Below the pieces are notes generated by a model. The model was given only the letters and a program-made list of their open reading frames with translations. It did not search any database and had not been told where the DNA came from. Positions 7,215-56,330 of a stretch of 64,000 bases of DNA are shown here, in pieces. The position numbers and the translations under genes are program-made. The stretch covers positions 72,628 to 136,627 of the forward strand of contig CALYBD010000001.1 in NCBI GenBank assembly GCA_944393745.1, written 5' to 3'. Source of the DNA: an uncultured Alphaproteobacteria bacterium. GTDB taxonomy: Bacteria > Pseudomonadota > Alphaproteobacteria > CAAGCB01 > CAG-977. Each line of letters starts with the position of its first letter. The stretch's first letter is position 1.

Positions 7215-7718
7215 TTATAATTTACAAAGATAACACAGTATACAGCAATTTTCCTTTGTTTTTGCAATATATTCGGTTCTTTGCGCAAAAAGAGAAAAAC
7301 CCGCTTTTTCAAAAGCGTTCCGAGAAGCTTTGTTCGTCTGACGTATATCCGCCAACAAAGCAAAGACATTCTGCGTTTTCATATATCGACAGACAGCACC
7401 GAGAGCTTCCGTACCGATCCCTTCCCCCCGGCGGTAAGGCGCAACATTAATCATAACTTCTATAATAATCTGTCCCGGATAATCGGGCAGATTTGTTTTT
7501 TCAAAACGGATAAATCCTGCCGGTTCGCCGCTTTCAATAATAAAGACCGGACAAAACTGTTCTTCTTTAAAATATCCTTCGCTGTATTCCAGCCAAAAAG
7601 AATCCCACGTTTTGGGTAAGGTGATATAAGACGCGGCAACCGTTTTCGGATCATTGCGCCAAGAAAAAGCAATCTTGGCATCGTGTTTGTTGTTTTTGCA
7701 GGGACACAGGGTAATCAT
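7215..7718 (-). CDS. GNAT-family N-acetyltransferase
   Basis: Acetyl-CoA binding region RRGEGIGTEAL and a C-terminal NxxSxxxxEKxGF motif. Confidence 0.7.
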   Translation of the reverse strand: MITLCPCKNNKHDAKIAFSWRNDPKTVAASYITLPKTWDSFWLEYSEGYFKEEQFCPVFIIESGEPAGFIRFEKTNLPDYPGQIIIEVMINVAPYRRGEGIGTEALGAVCRYMKTQNVFALLADIRQTNKASRNAFEKAGFSLFAQRTEYIAKTKENCCILCYLCKL

Positions 7719-7784
7719 TTTCTTTTTTTATCCAATCGTGATACAAACGTAGTGTAAAAGATTTAACCGCATGGATAAAGCACT

Positions 7785-8030
7785 ATGTTCAGAATTATAT
7801 ATTCGGTTCTTCTGCCTTTTTTAACACCGTTCGCGCTGTATTGGCTGGCCGGATATTTTTCGAAATCAGTACCGCGACACTGGCCGGTAAAAACTTTGAC
7901 CGCCGCGGGACTGGGACTGGTGTTGATTTTTTTGTTCGTTTTTTCCGATCCGGACAAAGCGCCTGCCGGCAGTGCTTATGTTCCGCCGAAATTTGAAAAC
8001 GGAAACATAATACCGGCGCATTACGGATAA
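7785..8030 (+). CDS. Small membrane protein, unknown function
   Basis: 81 aa with two hydrophobic helices. Immediately upstream of cca on the same strand. Confidence 0.35.
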   Translation: MFRIIYSVLLPFLTPFALYWLAGYFSKSVPRHWPVKTLTAAGLGLVLIFLFVFSDPDKAPAGSAYVPPKFENGNIIPAHYG

Positions 8031-48414: not shown

Positions 48415-48702
48415 TTTTTAAACCTTTCGTATATTCTTAACAGCCTGATCATAAATGAATGACTGTATTTTTTAAATATGGCCAAAAGGTCTGCTTTTTT
48501 TTAAACCAAAATGCGCATCACGGAAAAGGGATGGAACGATAGTTTTTACCGAGTGATGTTTGTTTATACCAACATATTGATATTATTGAATAAATAGGCG
48601 TTAATGAAGGTTGTGAGGACAAACTGAAATATACTTTCCTTTGGCGAAAAGCCCTTCCGGAAGTTACCTCCGTGTTACCTCAAATCGAAAGGATAAACGC
48701 CT

Positions 48703-50022
48703 ATGAATATCAATAAATCTTTCATCAACAGCCTGTCTTTTACGAGCAAGGAAACGACCTATTTCGACGATAGCGTCAAGGGCTTCGGCGTCCGCGTCTG
48801 CAAATCGTCCGCGAGTTATATTCTGATGTATCGCAACGCCTACGGGCGGCAAAAGAAGCTGACCATCTGTAAAACAACGCTGATGATGCCGACCGAAGCG
48901 CGGGACGAAGCCAAGCGGCTTTTGGCTTTGGTCGTTCAGGGCAAAGACCCGGAACAGGAAAAACTGGAACGCCGCAAAGAATTGACGATCGGCGAACTGG
49001 CGGACGAGTTCCTTAACTTCAAACTGCCGTTTCTGAAACAAGCGACACGGAACTCGTATCAATCGGCGGTCAAAAAGCACATCAAGCCGGATTTGGGCAA
49101 AATACCGATCAAAGCGTTCAGACATTCGGACGCTCAACGGTATTATAACGACTTGCTGATGGGAAAAGGGATAACGACCTTTCACTCCGAAAAAGAAGAC
49201 TTCCGGCATATCGGATCGGCGAACACGGTTCTCGTCCCTTTGCGGTGTATGTTCGATTACGCCCGTTCTTTGGGACTGGTGAACTTCAATCCGGTCAAGG
49301 AGTTGCAGACTTTCCCCAATCCGTGCAGTTACGAGTTCTTTGACGAAGCGGAAATCCGAAAGCTCGGCAGAATCATAAACACCTGCAATTACGTCAATCC
49401 GTATTATCTGAATGTTATCCGTTTGCTTGTAATGACGGGATGCCGGAAAAAGGAAATCGAAAATCTAAAATGGTCGTATATCGACTTCAAGCATCAGTTG
49501 TTCCTCTTTCCCGACACGAAGACGGGCGCGCAGGACAGACCGTTCGGCATAGCGGTCAAGGAGTTGCTTCTTCAAATGAAAGACGCCGTTCAGCCGCAGA
49601 GTAATGACAAGTTTGTGTTTCCGAAATCGGGGAAAGGAACGGACGTTGCCAAGAACTTCTTTCAGGTTCACGTCAAATCAAAGCCGGAGTTTGCGAAGAA
49701 GAAAGTTCACAGCTTGCGGCACACGTTTGCGTCGATGGCGGCGGCGATCGGCTTTCCGGAAGCGGTCGTGGCGAAGCTATTGGGACACAAGCAACAGAGT
49801 ATGACCGCGCGATACACGCACTTGACGGAAGACGCCGTTCAACAGGCGGCGGATAAGATAACGCGAAGGATTGCCGCGTTGCTGAATATCCCCGAACAAG
49901 GCGCCAAGCCGGAGGACGTGAAGATGTTTCCGCGGGGGATTCACCTTTACAAGCTTCATCTTGTGAAGTCGGAGAAATATCCGCGTCCGATACTCGCCCG
50001 AAAACAGAGGGCGGCGGGGTGA
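48703..50022 (+). CDS. int: Tyrosine-type site-specific integrase (phage integrase family)
   Basis: N-terminal arm-binding/SAM-like region, then a catalytic domain with R...HxLRH...Y (HSLRHTFAS ... RYTHL). Confidence 0.85.
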   Translation: MNINKSFINSLSFTSKETTYFDDSVKGFGVRVCKSSASYILMYRNAYGRQKKLTICKTTLMMPTEARDEAKRLLALVVQGKDPEQEKLERRKELTIGELADEFLNFKLPFLKQATRNSYQSAVKKHIKPDLGKIPIKAFRHSDAQRYYNDLLMGKGITTFHSEKEDFRHIGSANTVLVPLRCMFDYARSLGLVNFNPVKELQTFPNPCSYEFFDEAEIRKLGRIINTCNYVNPYYLNVIRLLVMTGCRKKEIENLKWSYIDFKHQLFLFPDTKTGAQDRPFGIAVKELLLQMKDAVQPQSNDKFVFPKSGKGTDVAKNFFQVHVKSKPEFAKKKVHSLRHTFASMAAAIGFPEAVVAKLLGHKQQSMTARYTHLTEDAVQQAADKITRRIAALLNIPEQGAKPEDVKMFPRGIHLYKLHLVKSEKYPRPILARKQRAAG

Positions 50023-50191
50023 TCCGAGAGGGGCGAAGTCCCTCTGGCAAGGGCGCAAAAGTTTTGCGCTAACTTGCTATGGTAGATTTTTTCTGCCGCG
50101 GCAAAGAACCGGAAACAAGGGAATACCGATGTAAAAAGATGCTACGAATGAATACGGACGAATACGAATGTAAACGACCGAATACGAACGT

Positions 50192-50878
50192 TTACATTAA
50201 GTTTTTCGCGTATGCGATAAACGGATAATCGTCGGCTCCTTCTTTGATTTTACCGAGATTTTCTTTTGTTCCGATTATCTTAGCCATCACGGCCAAACAG
50301 GCGGCATCAAGCAAATCATCAAATTTGAAAAAAGCGTCCTTTTCCTGTTTTGAGGCTTCTCGCAAAAGTTTTTCAATTCCGGCAACGCCAAGATATTCTT
50401 TCAAAATCAAAAGTCGTTCGGCTTGTCCCGCACCTGTTTTCTTGGGAAAAATCTTTTTGCTGTTGTTTAGCAGTTCAAAGCAAAACTCCGGATGAGATTC
50501 CCAAAAATGAAAAACGTCAGGATTGTTTCCTGCCGCGAACTCTTTTACTTCATAAATTTTGTGCATAATTGCTTTCGTTTGTTCTGACATCGTAATCGTA
50601 TCTTTGATACGGTCATATTCCTCTTCCGTAGGAGGTAAGTTTTCGGGAAGAGAAAAAACAGAATTTTTATTCCCTTTCATAGCATTACGCAACGCTCCGT
50701 CAGGTCTTTTTTTTAAGCCGATCGGCATATCAATCAGAATAATGTCTTTCGGGTTGCTTCTGTTAAAATCAAAGCCTGTTAATTTTTCTTTGACCGTAAC
50801 GTTTGCCACGCCATATTCATTTATAAAAACGGCGATCCATCCGGCAGGACACCCGTCAATCCCCACATATTCAGTCAT
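50192..50878 (-). CDS. DUF429-family protein (predicted RNase H-like fold)
   Basis: N-terminal GIDGCPAGW hallmark. 8-bp overlap with the upstream HD gene. Confidence 0.55.
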   Translation of the reverse strand: MTEYVGIDGCPAGWIAVFINEYGVANVTVKEKLTGFDFNRSNPKDIILIDMPIGLKKRPDGALRNAMKGNKNSVFSLPENLPPTEEEYDRIKDTITMSEQTKAIMHKIYEVKEFAAGNNPDVFHFWESHPEFCFELLNNSKKIFPKKTGAGQAERLLILKEYLGVAGIEKLLREASKQEKDAFFKFDDLLDAACLAVMAKIIGTKENLGKIKEGADDYPFIAYAKNLM

Positions 50879-51425
50879 TTATCAATTCCTTGTATAAAGC
50901 TAAAAACTCATTTTGCACATCTTCGAAAGGACGTATTTGCGATGACAACATAATATGGAGCATTTGGCCGTTATCCGGAATAGGATTTGCTTTCACATCA
51001 TTCTTAAAATAATTTTCAAATTCCCAATACAGCATTGTATCGTCAATCGTGTGCCATAATGCCTGTTCATCGAAAAACGGTTCTATGCAGTGCGAAGCAA
51101 GAGCCGTTAAAATAGCTTTTTCCAATCTGTCTTCGTTTTCCATATATGCTTGTCCTTTAATGGGACGAGGAATATCGCACATATACGCTTCGGAAGCATC
51201 GTGAAGAAGACAACAAAGCTGAATCGTTTTATCGTATCCTCGTGCAGCGGCTTCTTTACAGCAATTTATGGAATGTTCTGCAACGGAATAAAAACGGTTG
51301 AAATGACCGTTTGCACGACATAATAACGACAATGCGTGCGCTATGTCCTCAATTTTGACGGTCGTCGGATCAGGGGTGAGGATATTAAACGATTCTCCGG
51401 TAAAAGTGGAGATAATATTTTTCAT
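50871..51425 (-). CDS. HD-domain phosphohydrolase, YfbR-like (5'-deoxynucleotidase-type)
   Basis: H..VAEHS ... LLHDASE ... D metal-binding motif order typical of YfbR-type HD hydrolases. Confidence 0.6.
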   Translation of the reverse strand: MKNIISTFTGESFNILTPDPTTVKIEDIAHALSLLCRANGHFNRFYSVAEHSINCCKEAAARGYDKTIQLCCLLHDASEAYMCDIPRPIKGQAYMENEDRLEKAILTALASHCIEPFFDEQALWHTIDDTMLYWEFENYFKNDVKANPIPDNGQMLHIMLSSQIRPFEDVQNEFLALYKELIND

Positions 51426-51479
51426 TGGTTTCCCTAAAATAAAAGTTCGGTGCGGGAAGATATTCCCGCACCGAAAGCG

Positions 51480-51716
51480 TTATTTTTTCTTTTTCAGTTC
51501 TTCAGCCACGGCTTTGTTGAAATCTTTTTGCAGCTGATCCATTTTCTTGCGCTTTTCGTTCATTTTCTTCGTATAATCATCAAGCTTCTTTTGTGAATTC
51601 TGCGCCTGTTTCATATAGTTGTCATAGGTTCGTTTTTCCGAATCATACTGACGCTGAACGCTGTCGATTTCACGCTGTAAAGAATCCATATTTTTCTTGA
51701 TTTGTTCACTTGTCAT
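51480..51716 (-). CDS. Small (79 aa) all-coiled-coil protein, unknown function
   Basis: aggagt RBS then ATG MTSEQIKK. Heptad-rich K/E/Q sequence. The longer track ORF (to 51875) runs into the structured repeat and is probably an artefact. Confidence 0.45.
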   Translation of the reverse strand: MTSEQIKKNMDSLQREIDSVQRQYDSEKRTYDNYMKQAQNSQKKLDDYTKKMNEKRKKMDQLQKDFNKAVAEELKKKK

Positions 51717-51794
51717 TTTTTTACTCCTATTAAAGTTAACGACAAAAACAAGATAATTCGTATATACGTCAAAATATGTCATATTAAATTTCTT

Positions 51795-52145
51795 CGTATA
51801 TACAAAGCCCGCCTTAAAAGGCGGGCGGATGTTCAAACACCGTTTATCTATGGACGGCACAGCGGTTTCGCGCATAGCCTTATAACGCCGTCATTGTTAG
51901 AAAGAAAAGATGTATACTCTAATTTAGTAAACAGGCATTTAGCCTGTTTATGTCCGATAGAGAGTTGCAACTCTCTATCGGACGGCAGTTGAACGAACGG
52001 CGCCGACATAGAGATCCGCCCGTTCGGGACAGATTTGCGGCGTATAATTTGTTAGTCGCCATACACAATGCGACATAGATAAAAGGGTGTTTGAAGCCCT
52101 ATGCCTTTCAACAAAGCATATCTGATTTTTAACCAACTTTTTTCA
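51795..52145 (-). ncRNA. Copy A of a structured noncoding element (candidate leader/sRNA, minus sense) upstream of the coiled-coil gene
   Basis: Homologous to copy B, sharing blocks GGATGTTCA.A.ACCGT, GCCGACAT..CCGCC, AGTCGC..GCGAC and AAAAGGGT..CCCT. In minus sense it ends in a gcccgcc/ggcgggc hairpin plus T-run. Calling them repeats is firm; calling them RNA is inferred. Confidence 0.45.
51952..51983. repeat. Perfect 32-bp palindrome (16-bp arms, no spacer) inside copy A
   Basis: gtccgatagagagttg|caactctctatcggac. Absent from copy B. Confidence 0.9.
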
Positions 52146-52557
52146 TAAAGCAAATTAAATTTATCAATGGGATTACAAGAGGAAAAATAAGAGTCAGCAA
52201 AAGTGGCAGGATACGCAATTCGTAATACGAACGCTTGCCGGTGAACTCTGCGAGGCATTTGCCGACGGCAAAGAGGAAAAAAACGCACGGTCGAATTTTT
52301 TATTTTTGCCATCTATCAGCCGGATGATTTTCCGTTGCTAAAAATCCGTTCTTGTTTTACTTTAACAACAGAGGGAATAGTCCATAAAATTATTCTCTCA
52401 TCGGAAATCTTCGGAAGATTTCGGCAAAGGACTTTTTTCTGTTACCTCGCTGTTACCTGCTGCCGTTTTCGATAATATCAAGAAACATCAAAAACATCGT
52501 TTTTATGTTTCACTTCAACAAGTTGTAAAATACCATCAAAACCTTAAACCCGTTGTA

Positions 52558-53010
52558 TTACAAAAGATCAAACATTCCTGTCTGACGCAAAGCTTCGCCC
52601 AATACAACGGCCCCCGAAAGGGCAACATTAACGGATCGGGCTTCCGGACGCATCGGAATACGCAACCGCGCGTCCGCCGCCTGATGCACGAAATCCGGTA
52701 CTCCCGCGCTTTCGCGCCCCAACAGCAAAATATCATCGCGTCTAAAAGAAAATTTCTGATACGGCTCGGATCCCTTTGTCGTCAATAAAACGATCCGCCC
52801 CTGATGAGCGGCATAAAATTTTTCCCACGAATCATGGCGGGTATAATCGACAATATCCAGATAATCCATCCCTGCCCGACGCATTTTTTGATCGTTAAAA
52901 ATAAACCCGCACGGTTCGATAATATCCACGGGAATGTCAAAACACGCCGCCAAACGCATCAATGTACCCGTATTCTGCGGTATATCCGGTTCGTAAAGAG
53001 CTAAACGCAT
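52558..53010 (-). CDS. trmL: tRNA (cytidine/uridine-2'-O)-methyltransferase TrmL (SpoU family)
   Basis: MRLALYEPDIPQNTGTLMRLAACF N-terminus. About 150 aa SPOUT. Confidence 0.8.
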   Translation of the reverse strand: MRLALYEPDIPQNTGTLMRLAACFDIPVDIIEPCGFIFNDQKMRRAGMDYLDIVDYTRHDSWEKFYAAHQGRIVLLTTKGSEPYQKFSFRRDDILLLGRESAGVPDFVHQAADARLRIPMRPEARSVNVALSGAVVLGEALRQTGMFDLL

Positions 53011-55503: not shown

Positions 55504-56067
55504 TTAACGCTGTTTTTCCCGTACAGCCGTTACTTTATAATCGCCGCCGTATTTGTACAGCAAAATACAGCAGCGGTGCTGCCCGTCAATAATGACATTA
55601 TCTTTATTCAGAACAACAATGCACAAGGCCGGATTATATCCTTTTTCGTTCATTGATTTTTCTAAATTTTCAAAGCGTTCCGGCGTTCTGTCGGCATCAG
55701 CGGGCAGTACCCCCAAATCAATATGTTTTTGAACGTAATCGGCATAAATGCCTTTGTCCCTTGTCTGCAGATATTTAAACGGAGAACACTGCGTTAAAGG
55801 ATACAGCTTTCCGTTCCATTTTCTGCGAATATCTTTTAAAGGAATCTTAACGATTTCCGTTTCTTCTATTAACCCGATGGCATCCGCCGGCAGTCGGATT
55901 CCCTGATCTGCCAGTCGTTGTGACAGCCTTTGGAAATTTTGATATCGGTAAATTTCCCGTATCATGTAGCGATAATTCCAAAATACTATTTTTTTATTCA
56001 GGATTCGAAATGTTTTTCGGATTTTCGTTTTATGAAACGAAAAAATTTTTTGTAGAACTCTGTGCAT
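55504..56067 (-). CDS. ParB/Srx-fold (DGQHR-motif) nuclease-domain protein, inserted between prs and rplY
   Basis: C-terminal VIIDGQHRCCIL motif (a DGxHR core). aagga RBS lies 9 nt before the ATG. Located directly 3' of structured element copy B on the same strand. Confidence 0.45.
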   Translation of the reverse strand: MHRVLQKIFSFHKTKIRKTFRILNKKIVFWNYRYMIREIYRYQNFQRLSQRLADQGIRLPADAIGLIEETEIVKIPLKDIRRKWNGKLYPLTQCSPFKYLQTRDKGIYADYVQKHIDLGVLPADADRTPERFENLEKSMNEKGYNPALCIVVLNKDNVIIDGQHRCCILLYKYGGDYKVTAVREKQR

Positions 56068-56094
56068 TTTCTGAACAATCCTTTTTCCGGTTAA

Positions 56095-56330
56095 ACAAAA
56101 CCTACCTTTGCAGGTAGGCGGATGTTCAGAAACCGTATAAACCTAACACGGCTCGACCTATTGGGCGAATAGCCGTATTCAGCCGACATCCGCCTGCATA
56201 GGACAGAAATCGGCATAAATATTTAAAGTCGCTTTATGCTGTGCGACTAGGTTTAAAAGGGTTTCTGACGCCCTGAATCCGATAAAACCGGATTCATATG
56301 TATACTATCGAAAAATAAAAAAAGAGCAAT
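56095..56330 (-). ncRNA. Copy B of the structured noncoding element (candidate leader/sRNA, minus sense) upstream of the ParB-like gene
   Basis: About 70% conserved blocks with copy A. Internal helices ggcggatgt/acatccgcc and tcagaaacc/ggtttctga. In minus sense it ends in a cctacc/ggtagg hairpin plus TTTTGTTT about 20 nt before the gene RBS. Confidence 0.45.

What the first reader, a model, noticed from the sequence alone, without database searches (positions are those of the whole stretch)
48653..52462. Small integrase-bounded islet with imperfect direct repeats and no tRNA target
A tyrosine integrase starts 22 bp inside a 19-bp repeat (gttacctccgtgttacctc). A near-copy (gttacctcgctgttacctg; 17 of 19 identical) lies 3.8 kb away, just before the trmL locus. 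The bracketed DNA has lower GC, carries non-core cargo (an HD hydrolase, DUF429, a coiled-coil peptide, structured RNA copy A) and has no tRNA at either end. A (GAATACGA)-type short repeat cluster with a 10-bp inverted repeat (aatgtaaacg/cgtttacatt) follows the integrase. The arrangement looks like a compact integrative element or satellite using a non-tRNA attachment site.
Basis: partly seen in the sequence, partly recalled or inferred. Interest (0 to 1): 0.55.

Follow-up and report, generated by a model that had tools for sequence, protein, structure and literature searches.

The report
Small mobilizable island beside trmL
A 4-kb mobile DNA element has inserted at the very end of the trmL gene of an uncultured gut alphaproteobacterium; it carries its own integrase, a site that looks like a conjugative transfer origin, and swappable cargo genes, and it is a real but fairly ordinary new member of the small integrative mobilizable islands.

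Summary
Two copies of GTTACCTC-NN-TGTTACCT lie at 48663 and 52441 (16/19 identical, not 17/19). They are the only two in the window, with none expected by chance. They bracket a P4-type tyrosine integrase, DUF429, an HD dNMP-phosphatase-like protein, a 78-aa coiled-coil protein and a structured RNA, and there is no tRNA.

Sister species have trmL directly next to the OMP gene, so an empty site exists. Copies of the same element (82-98% nt identity) sit in four other contexts. These comparisons put the true ends at about 48512 and 52556-52560, roughly 150 bp and 100 bp outside the repeats.

The GTTACC-N5-GTTACC pair lies about 20 bp upstream of the start codon in every relative of this integrase and nowhere else. 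It is therefore most likely an arm-type Int site, not the crossover site.

The right arm begins with an inverted repeat plus TATCCTG^C, the MOBP nick consensus. The same module sits beside a MobC/MobP1-like relaxase operon in one relative. In sister copies the cargo is replaced by candidate defence genes at identical junctions.

Sister copies insert into the oriT-like hairpin of related elements with 9-11-bp repeats. The trmL site is a degenerate secondary site, and the element appears fixed in this species.

Relatives at about 52% identity integrate into a structured sRNA gene that has no Rfam family.

The parts
48503..48511 (.). attL core-equivalent (AAACCAAAA). The 5-bp CAAAA at 48507-48511 is repeated at 52561-52565. 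DNA to the left is the ancestral trmL-OMP spacer.
   Evidence: Homology to the empty-site species L026 stops at 48490. Homology to sister copies starts at 48509-48512.
48512..48702 (+). Left arm (P' arm) of the element. It holds the family-conserved CCAACATATTGATATT box (48569-48584) and the left GTTACC pair.
   Evidence: 94-97% identical in sister copies L114-L117 and L136, whose flanks differ. The box is conserved in relatives of 45-52% identity.
48663..48680 (+). Left GTTACC-N5-GTTACC pair. Inferred to be arm-type Int binding sites and an int autoregulation site.
   Evidence: present about 20 bp upstream of the ATG in every family integrase, and absent from 1.17 Mb of control loci.
48703..50022 (+). 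P4-type (DUF4102) tyrosine integrase, 439 aa, intact.
   Evidence: Pfam, PHROG 1, conserved catalytic residues.
50023..50120 (+). Conserved post-int three-hairpin region. Candidate second (MobV-type) transfer origin or other cis element.
   Evidence: 86-88% identical to L022 9537-9638, which lies immediately upstream of a MobV relaxase gene, although the two integrases are only 48-49% identical. The hairpins show compensatory changes.
50143..50189 (+). Cluster of (G)AATACG(A/G)A repeats with 10-bp period. It ends exactly at the left cargo junction (50189|50190) and resembles the att core CATACGAAA.
50190..52204 (-). Variable cargo module: DUF429 (50192-50878), HD dNMP-phosphatase-like (50871-51425), terminator (51446-51475), 78-aa coiled-coil protein (51480-51716), sRNA copy A (51800-52126).
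   Evidence: Replaced at the same two junctions by a GmrSD-like HEC-05 gene in L114 and by ankyrin/PDC-M72A plus WYL genes in L117. Gene identities.
51800..52126 (-). Structured sRNA copy A, with its own promoter-like site, a terminator (51807-51826), and a 115-nt insert carrying a 32-nt palindrome (51952-51983).
52205..52234 (-). oriT-like site. On the minus strand it reads GCGTTCGT-ATT-ACGAATTGC-G-TATCCTG^CC, an inverted repeat followed by the MOBP nick consensus. The predicted nic lies between 52207 and 52206, 2-3 nt from the right cargo junction.
   Evidence: Alignment A3: TATCCTGC is invariant in 16 family sites. The homologous site in L023 lies upstream of a mobC / MobP1-like relaxase operon. 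The consensus is taken from PMC3772185.
52205..52560 (+). Right arm (P arm) of the element.
   Evidence: 88-93% identical in L114 and L117, up to window position 52556.
52441..52458 (+). Right GTTACC-N5-GTTACC pair, about 100 bp inside the right end. Inferred arm-type Int sites.
   Evidence: A right-hand pair with the same CGCT spacer also occurs about 8 kb downstream of int in L022.
52557..52565 (.). attR core-equivalent (ATTACAAAA). It overlaps the trmL stop codon (52558-52560).
   Evidence: TrmL ends ...DLL* here, against ...DLLT* in the empty-site species L026.
52558..53010 (-). trmL, the target gene. The element sits on its last codons.
   Evidence: Best NCBIfam match is TrmL, at 137.6 bits, below that model's curated cut-off of 190.6. 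SpoU_methylase domain.

Best explanation
The islet is a 4.05-kb integrative element (about 48512-52560). It was inserted by its own P4-type tyrosine integrase into the last codons of trmL.

Its roughly 2-kb backbone has five parts:
- a 190-bp left arm;
- int;
- a conserved structured region after int, followed by ATACGAA repeats;
- a MOBP-type oriT-like site (inverted repeat plus TATCCTG^C);
- a 350-bp right arm.

A 2-kb cargo slot lies between the repeats and the oriT-like site.

The two GTTACC-N5-GTTACC 18-mers are subterminal. They are most likely arm-type sites bound by the integrase N-terminal domain, and the left pair would also autoregulate int. Strand exchange happens elsewhere, at a short core related to C(A/G)(T/G)ACGAAA.

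The element has no relaxase or mating genes. It would spread as a relaxase-less integrative mobilizable element whose oriT is used in trans by relaxases of related elements.

The usual landing site of this lineage is the oriT-like hairpin of sibling elements. The trmL site is a degenerate secondary site, and the element is now present in every sampled genome of the species.

Shown: the insertion, the ends, the conserved motifs and the cargo swapping. Inferred: Int binding to GTTACC, nicking at TATCCTG^C, mobilization in trans, and present-day activity.
For: Empty site:
- L026 (TrmL 90%, LeuS 96%), L027 and L032 have trmL followed directly by the OMP gene. In L026 and L032 the surrounding genes are in the same order as in the window.
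- L026 aligns with the window up to 48490 and again from 52576.

Ends and mobility:
- Copies with 94-95% integrase identity in L114-L117 share window 48509-50189 and 52203-52556 but have different flanks.
- Uninterrupted versions of those flanks exist: L133/L132 for L114 and L127 for L117 show both flanks contiguous. For L116 and L115 only the left flank was recovered; it matches L130/L119 and L023.
- The flanking direct repeats are TCGGACGAAA (L114) and GTCATACGAAA (L117).

Integrase:
- It is intact, with arm-binding and core-binding domains and the catalytic residues.

GTTACC pair:
- It precedes the ATG in about 30 family loci of 36-95% identity.
- There are 0 hits in 1.17 Mb of control loci.
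- The N-terminal domain is the most conserved part of the protein.
- A right-arm pair also occurs in L022.

oriT-like site:
- Inverted repeat plus TATCCTGC is invariant in 16 sites.
- It matches the MOBP consensus (C/T)ATCCTG(C/T) preceded by an inverted repeat (PMC3772185).
- In L023 it lies upstream of mobC and a MobP1-like relaxase.
- There are no relaxase or T4SS homologues in the window.

Cargo slot:
- The junctions are identical while the genes differ.
Against: - No excised circle and no within-species empty site was found. All 16-18 contigs carrying the exact integrase, TrmL or OMP have the islet (circle search).
- The window's flanking repeat is only CAAAA (6/9 over the core), so this copy may no longer be able to excise.
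- No excisionase or RDF gene is present.
- Binding of Int to GTTACC is inferred only.
- The 8-mer YATCCTGY occurs 8 times in the window by chance. The oriT call therefore rests on context and conservation, not on the motif alone.
- The relaxase match to MobP1 is below the family cut-off.
- The hosts of the sister copies are unknown metagenome contigs.
Confidence: 0.7

Rival explanations
1. Immobilised relic. The element did insert by site-specific recombination, but in this species it is now a fixed, non-mobile islet, and the integrase and arms are retained only by inertia.
For: Every sampled contig of the species has it at the same place. The core repeat is degenerate and the right-end inverted repeat is eroded compared with sister copies. 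There is no RDF gene. Two sister copies (L117, L136) already carry a 227-bp deletion in int.
Against: The int ORF is intact with all catalytic residues. Both arms, the GTTACC pairs and the oriT-like site are 88-97% conserved with copies that sit at other sites.
Confidence: 0.3
2. One reading: the two 19-mers are attL and attR, and the element is the 3.8 kb between them.
For: They are the only long direct repeat bracketing the integrase and are highly non-random.
Against: Sister copies in other contexts share about 150 bp to the left and 98 bp to the right of the repeats. The empty site in L026 lacks that DNA too. In relatives the motif lies about 190 bp inside the element boundary, next to the int ATG.
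Confidence: 0.03
3. The GTTACC pairs are operator sites for transcriptional control only (by Int or another regulator) and have no role as recombination arm sites.
For: The left pair lies between a promoter-like TTGATA-17-GTTAAT and the int RBS. In most relatives only the int-proximal pair was seen within the DNA available.
Against: A second pair lies in the right arm, where no gene starts. It is conserved in L114 and L117, and L022 has one with the same CGCT spacer. The integrase carries a dedicated arm-binding domain.
Confidence: 0.12
4. Phage satellite or prophage remnant (P4-, PICI- or PLE-like).
For: The integrase is P4-type (PHROG 1). The HD protein matches a phage dNMP-phosphatase family.
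Against: There are no capsid, terminase, primase, AlpA or repressor genes. The only phage DNA match covers 86 bp. The only IMG/VR relatives are about 25% identical. Relatives carry relaxases, MobC and T4SS genes instead.
Confidence: 0.03

Closest known systems
Relaxase-less integrative mobilizable elements (MGIs), e.g. the Vibrio MGIs mobilized by SXT/R391 ICEs or IncA/C plasmids (review PMC5704250)
   Same: It has a tyrosine integrase and is inserted in the 3' end of a housekeeping protein gene (MGIs use yicC or trmE; here trmL). It has no relaxase or mating-pore genes. It carries an oriT-like site resembling that of relatives that do encode relaxases. Its cargo includes defence-type genes.
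   Different: It is far smaller (4 kb against 16-33 kb). No RDF or MobI-type accessory gene is present. The oriT-like site is MOBP-type (ATCCTG) rather than MOBH. Sister copies land inside the oriT-like hairpin of sibling elements. Mobilization has not been demonstrated.
Small mobilizable transposons and IMEs of Bacteroides (Tn5520, NBU1, Tn4555)
   Same: Comparable size class (Tn5520 is 4.7 kb, PMC5704250). A tyrosine integrase plus oriT forms a minimal chassis.
   Different: Those elements encode their own Mob relaxase, which the window element lacks. The integrase family and target sites differ.
P4-type integrase genomic islands at tRNA or tmRNA genes
   Same: Same integrase architecture (Arm-DNA-bind_3 + SAM-like + catalytic domain). 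The int gene sits at one end, next to the att site. Relatives at about 52% identity integrate into the 3' end of a small structured RNA gene and leave a hybrid gene, as happens with tRNA targets.
   Different: No tRNA or tmRNA is involved anywhere. This copy sits on a protein-gene stop codon, and its sisters sit in an oriT-like hairpin.
Tycheposons of Prochlorococcus (bioRxiv 10.1101/2020.12.28.424599)
   Same: A small tyrosine-recombinase chassis with plug-in cargo modules that differ between otherwise near-identical elements. Elements accumulate next to or inside one another.
   Different: Tycheposons use seven tRNA genes, usually carry a replication module, and belong to a distinct recombinase clade. 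Here there is an oriT-like site and no replication genes. Clade membership was not tested.
Tandem accretion and nested integration of ICEs and IMEs (PMC5704250, section 2.3)
   Same: An incoming element integrates into a site carried by a resident, distantly related element (L114 and L117 here).
   Different: The site used is not the resident's attL or attR. It is the inverted repeat of the resident's oriT-like module, about 40-130 bp downstream of its int gene in the three residents where that distance was measured; in L023 the same site lies about 4.6 kb from int.

Membership tests
Tyrosine integrase, P4-type (DUF4102 arm domain) | Catalytic R-K-H-x-x-R-H-Y set in a Phage_integrase domain | tested here: met
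   PF00589, E 1e-21. R248, K273, H336, R339, H362 and Y371 are invariant or nearly so across 21 homologues.
Tyrosine integrase, P4-type (DUF4102 arm domain) | N-terminal arm-DNA-binding domain plus SAM-like core-binding domain | tested here: met
   PF13356, E 1.5e-11, and PF14659, E 1.1e-10.
Site-specific integrative element | Present/absent polymorphism with an intact empty site in relatives | tested here: met
   L026, L027 and L032 have trmL directly next to the OMP gene. Empty sites were also found for the sister copies: both flanks contiguous for L114 and L117, left flank only for L115 and L116.
Site-specific integrative element | Short direct repeat (att core) at both junctions | tested here: inconclusive
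   Sister copies have perfect 10-11-bp repeats. The window copy has only CAAAA, or 6/9 over the core.
Site-specific integrative element | Excised circular form, or excision | not testable with these tools
Read-level data or PCR would be needed.
Site-specific integrative element | Recombination directionality factor (Xis/AlpA) | tested here: not met
   No candidate ORF in the conserved backbone. The 86-aa ORF at 52052-52312 has no family hit and is not conserved in L114.
Integrative mobilizable element without relaxase (MGI type) | A functional oriT recognised by a helper relaxase | tested here: inconclusive
   Inverted repeat plus TATCCTG^C at 52205-52234(-), homologous to 15 family sites, one of them upstream of mobC and a MobP1-like relaxase. 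Function was not tested.
Integrative mobilizable element without relaxase (MGI type) | No relaxase, coupling-protein or mating-pore genes in the element | tested here: met
   The element's ORFs are int, DUF429, HD and cc78. There are no relaxase or T4SS homologues in the whole window.
tRNA/tmRNA-targeting genomic island | tRNA or tmRNA gene at one end, with its 3' part duplicated at the other | tested here: not met
   ARAGORN finds 0 genes in the window and in relatives' loci. Rfam finds none.
Phage satellite (P4 / PICI / PLE) | Packaging or capsid-redirection genes, replication genes, and a helper-responsive regulator | tested here: not met
   None among the ORFs. No phage or IMG/VR relatives.
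Integron | IntI-type integrase with attI and attC-bounded cassettes | tested here: not met
   The integron-integrase models score 17-28 bits against cut-offs of 265-435. Cargo junctions are not attC-like.
Known anti-phage defence system (cargo) | Match to a PADLOC model | tested here: not met
   DUF429 and HD give no hit, and cc78 gives only weak coiled-coil noise. Sister cargos do match: HEC-05 and PDC-M72A/WYL.
sRNA-Xcc1 (RF02221), for the cargo RNA | Score at or above the Rfam gathering threshold | tested here: not met
   Copy B scores 27.8 bits against a gathering score of 53, E 0.011 in a 601-nt search. Copy A gives no hit.

The most novel reading that the evidence does not exclude
This is a family built on a roughly 2-kb 'integrase + oriT' chassis with three unusual habits.

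1. It homes into the inverted repeat of the oriT of sibling mobilizable elements. It leaves the host's nick site intact beside its own right end, and so rides on their transfer.
2. It acquires and exchanges cargo precisely at its own nick site, by relaxase-mediated joining rather than by homologous recombination.
3. Its relatives use a previously undescribed, independently transcribed, structured sRNA gene as attB. At least two element types, including the window's, carry a complete spare copy of that sRNA.
Probability: 0.2. Interest if true: 0.7.

Novelty: new member of a known kind. Interest (0 to 1): 0.45.

Why it matters
The result shows how a gene-poor, uncultured gut alphaproteobacterium gains accessory genes, probably including defence genes. 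The vehicle is a minimal element that needs only an integrase, two arms and a borrowed transfer origin. The cis-element set is clean and testable: GTTACC arm pairs, an ACGAAA-type core, and an inverted repeat plus TATCCTG^C nick module. That set could be used to find such mini-elements in metagenomes, where relaxase-less IMEs are systematically missed. The analysis also exposes an sRNA family with no Rfam match that serves as an integration target in the way tRNA genes do.

Tried and rejected
- **Known RNA families.** Rfam at gathering and at E-value thresholds, on the window and on relatives, gave no family for the RNA. The only lead is a sub-threshold sRNA-Xcc1 hit. The original sRNA-Xcc1 paper is not held.
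- **tRNA or tmRNA target.** None found.
- **The 19-mers as att sites.** Rejected on the sister-copy and empty-site boundaries.
- **TTAAACC (48501-48507 and 52544-52550) as the att core.** Considered. It predicts an attL that is not observed, and the sister copies' ends do not fit it. It is kept as unexplained.
- **The RNA as a leader for a conserved downstream gene.** Rejected: the downstream genes (cc78, p187, and the L023 245-aa protein) are unrelated.
- **RNA-guided recombination.** Considered and not supported. The variable RNA helix pairs with itself, and the integrase has standard arm- and core-binding domains. It was not tested directly.
- **Phage or satellite origin.** BLAST against phages and an IMG/VR scan gave nothing relevant.
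- **The post-int region in plasmids.** No match.
- **Circle junction and post-int hairpin motif in viral contigs.** No match.
- **PADLOC and PDB sequence searches on the cargo.** Nothing for DUF429. For the HD protein, only the hypothetical HD protein Atu1052.
- **Two literature searches for the nick consensus.** Unusable; the consensus was obtained from PMC3772185 instead.
- **L119 versus L130 as a test of recombination exactly at nic.** The junction lies a few bases 5' of the motif, so the comparison is not decisive.

Full report
**1. The observation**

They are the only matches to the pattern in the 64-kb window even with two mismatches allowed, against none in 100 shuffles. Identity over 19 nt is 16/19, not 17/19.

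Each repeat is itself a tandem of GTTACC hexamers spaced 11 bp apart.

The integrase (48703-50022) has the three domains of a P4-type enzyme. Its catalytic residues are intact.

The cargo calls hold:
- DUF429.
- An HD protein. Its Pfam match is just sub-threshold, but it matches the phage dNMP-phosphatase family PHROG 318 at E 1e-40.
- A 78-aa coiled-coil protein.
- A strongly structured RNA region.

There is no tRNA or tmRNA in the whole window and no Rfam family at gathering score. GC is lower only in the cargo and arms (0.39). The integrase is at 0.51 and the rest of the window at 0.46.

**2. Is it an insertion?**

Yes. A scan of one genome per species with TrmL as query returned close relatives. 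In L026 (TrmL 90%, YchF 97%, LeuS 96% identical) the gene order is prs, p187, rplY, pth, ychF, trmL, OMP, yggS, porin, DUF3576, leuS, with only 89 bp between trmL and the OMP gene. L027 and L032 also have trmL followed directly by the OMP gene. L026 aligns with the window up to 48490 and again from 52576.

Within the species itself I found no empty site. Every contig that carries the exact integrase, TrmL or OMP protein has the islet or one of its junctions. That covers 16-18 contigs per query from several samples.

**3. Where are the ends?**

A metagenome scan with an integrase alignment returned five copies of the same element: L114-L117 and L136. Their integrases are 94-95% identical to the window's, and the aligned DNA blocks are 82-98% identical.

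Their flanks are unrelated to the window's. Homology runs from window 48509-48512 to 50189, and from 52203-52205 to 52556. The element is therefore about 48512-52560 (4.05 kb).

Both GTTACC pairs are internal: the left pair lies 151 bp from the left end and the right pair about 100 bp from the right end.

For L114 and L117, uninterrupted versions of both flanks exist in other loci: L133/L132 for L114 and L127 for L117. For L116 and L115 only the left flank was recovered; it matches L130/L119 and L023 respectively. L114 is flanked by TCGGACGAAA and L117 by GTCATACGAAA, and in each case the repeat matches the sequence of its own empty site.

In the window the corresponding 9-mers are AAACCAAAA (48503-48511) and ATTACAAAA (52557-52565). 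They agree at 6 of 9 positions, with CAAAA shared. The right junction sits on the trmL stop codon. TrmL now ends ...DLL*, where L026 has ...DLLT*. The DNA left of the element would restore ...DLLV* (read directly from the sequence).

I conclude that the element recombined into the last codons of trmL at a poor, secondary copy of its core.

**4. What the 18-mers are**

Every relative of this integrase from 36% to 95% identity has GTTACC-N5-GTTACC 20-25 bp upstream of its start codon. The hexamers are invariant and the spacer varies. The motif is absent from 1.17 Mb of 80 alphaproteobacterial loci that lack such an integrase.

In elements found in several contexts the motif lies about 190 bp inside the boundary. 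A second pair in the right arm is conserved in L114 and L117. L022, a 49%-identical relative, has one with the same CGCT spacer about 8 kb downstream of its int. The N-terminal arm-binding domain is the most conserved part of the protein family.

The best reading, which is an inference, is that these are arm-type sites for the Int N-domain on the P and P' arms. The int-proximal pair would double as an autoregulatory site, as established knowledge of lambda- and P4-type integrases would predict.

**5. How it may move between cells**

The right arm begins with GGCAGGATACGCAATTCGTAATACGAACGC (52205-52234). On the minus strand this is an inverted repeat followed by G-TATCCTG-CC.

The same module, consensus CTTTTCGT-NNN-ACGAAAAGG-CTATCCTGC, occurs in 15 other places in family loci. 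TATCCTGC is invariant across all 16 aligned sites.

It matches the MOBP nick region (C/T)ATCCTG(C/T), preceded by an inverted repeat, as described for RP4 TraI, VirD2 and Tfs4 VirD2 (PMC3772185). In L023 the module lies just upstream of a 72-aa gene, mobC and a relaxase whose best family is MobP1, though sub-threshold.

The element itself has no relaxase, and the window has no relaxase or T4SS homologue.

A second conserved piece, 50023-50120 directly after int, is 86-88% identical to the DNA immediately upstream of a MobV relaxase gene in L022. L022 also carries T4SS genes. The hairpins in this piece show compensatory changes.

Taken together, this is the anatomy of a relaxase-less integrative mobilizable element (MGI type, PMC5704250). 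Nicking and mobilization are inferred, not shown. The 8-mer alone occurs 8 times in the window by chance.

**6. Target preference of the lineage**

All four sister insertions are in the loop and right arm of that same oriT-like hairpin in other family elements. In the three resident elements where I measured it (L127, L130, L133), the hairpin lies about 40-130 bp downstream of the resident's int; in L023 the equivalent site is about 4.6 kb from int.

The reconstructed attP of a sister copy (GCATTCGT-TGTCAT-ACGAAATGC) is itself an imperfect palindrome that resembles the hairpin (read). The ATACGAA-type repeats after int (50143-50189) resemble the same core.

So this lineage normally nests into sibling elements. 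The trmL insertion is the exception.

**7. Cargo**

Between ...GAATACG(A/G)AC| (50189|50190) and |GGCAGGATACGC (52204|52205), the copies carry different genes:
- Window, L115 and L136: DUF429 and the HD protein. The window and L115 also carry cc78; sRNA copy A was seen only in the window, because the L115 and L136 contigs end before that region.
- L114: a GmrSD-like gene matching the candidate defence family HEC-05.
- L117: an ankyrin protein matching PDC-M72A, plus a WYL regulator.

The window cargo matches no PADLOC model. Its function is unknown. A defence or counter-defence role is a guess based on its neighbours.

The right junction is 2-3 nt from the predicted nick. Homologous recombination in the conserved flanks is the simple explanation for cargo swapping. 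Relaxase-mediated joining at the nick is possible but untested.

**8. The RNA**

Copy A (51800-52126, minus strand) and copy B (56097-56300, minus strand, between prs and p187) belong to one family. Each has promoter-like and terminator sequences.

A 12-sequence alignment gives 35 pairs, 16 of them with compensatory changes. 92% of cells are paired, against 32-41% when the 3' partners are slid, and 0 of 500 shuffles reach the observed values.

A covariance model finds the RNA only in the window, in L026, and next to family integrases.

In the subfamily at about 52% identity, the RNA gene lies about 155 bp upstream of the GTTACC pair. Its 5' part varies with the host flank: it lies after rplQ in L119, after fur in L121, and after a DJ-1 gene in L021. 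The element-borne sequence starts after ...ACGGTTTCTGA. L143 even carries the 3' helix strand of L131. This is the tRNA-like pattern of integration into the 3' end of an RNA gene.

Rfam offers only a sub-threshold match of the 3' half to sRNA-Xcc1, an RNA linked to mobile elements (context). What the RNA does is open.

**9. Comparison and verdict**

The element works like, and most resembles, a miniature relaxase-less IME. It also shares the plug-in-cargo logic of tycheposons and the nested integration known as accretion.

It fails the tests for a tRNA island, a phage satellite and an integron. Membership in the IME class is incomplete, because oriT function and excision could not be tested.

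I rate it as a new member of a known kind. It is of moderate interest as it stands, and would be of higher interest if oriT homing, cargo capture at the nick site and the sRNA target are confirmed.

Noticed in passing
window 56097-56300 (-); also 51800-52126 (-); L026 6725-6933; L118-L126, L131, L138, L143 and L021 upstream of int: A structured sRNA family of about 180 nt with its own promoter-like and terminator sequences. It reaches no Rfam gathering score. 16 of 35 pairs show compensatory changes, and 0 of 500 shuffles reach the observed values. It serves as the attB of the integrase subfamily at about 52% identity, and it lies in different housekeeping neighbourhoods in different hosts. 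There is a weak sub-threshold resemblance to sRNA-Xcc1.
   Followed up: partly
window 55504-56300: sRNA copy B plus the 187-aa gene downstream of it look like another small insertion. The protein has no family hit and carries a DGQHR ParB-like motif. prs and rplY are adjacent in L031 and L033 but separated by this pair in the window and in L026.
   Followed up: partly
window 51895-52010, palindrome 51952-51983: sRNA copy A carries a 115-nt insert that other family members lack. The insert includes a perfect 32-nt palindrome. Logan assemblies from three samples all break at 51852 and 51986, on either side of it.
   Followed up: no
L023/L024/L025 about 7640-7790; L121 (-) about 15229: A second, smaller RNA-like gene (GGAGCCGUCAGAAGCUC...GGUCGGGGAGGUUUUGACG) appears to be the integration target of the P0014-type integrase. 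That element occurs in three different contexts with a hybrid 3' end. An intact copy lies in L121.
   Followed up: partly
L117 6668-7760; L136 135-963 (window equivalent 48998-49224): Two sister copies of the element share a 227-bp deletion inside int that breaks the reading frame. L117 nevertheless still has perfect 11-bp flanking repeats, so decayed copies persist.
   Followed up: partly
window 50023-50120; L022 9537-9638: The non-coding stretch after int is 86-88% identical to the DNA just upstream of a MobV relaxase gene in a T4SS-bearing relative, although the two integrases are under 50% identical. One hairpin differs by fully compensatory changes (GCGCAAAA/TTTTGCGC against GGGCAGAA/TTCTGCCC). 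It may be a second oriT.
   Followed up: partly
L119 11188-11330 against L130 11179-11225: L130 equals L119 minus about 95 bp lying between two tandem 'inverted repeat + TATCCTG' modules. The downstream DNA is 98% identical even though the integrases belong to different subfamilies. The oriT-like module therefore marks a junction between modules.
   Followed up: partly
window 48501-48507 and 52544-52550: The 7-mer TTAAACC lies just outside the left end. It also replaces the sister copies' TGCATT patch just inside the right end. This could be chance or a trace of the integration event.
   Followed up: partly
window 52362-52390 (+): The best promoter-like match in the element (TTAACA-17-TAAAAT, 10/12) points outward across the right end. 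In a circular form it would read toward int. It is only partly conserved in L114.
   Followed up: no
window 50192-50878; L002, L003, L004: The DUF429 gene is called as 228 aa overlapping the HD gene in some strains, and as 224 aa separated from it in others. This is strain-level variation at the HD/DUF429 junction.
   Followed up: no
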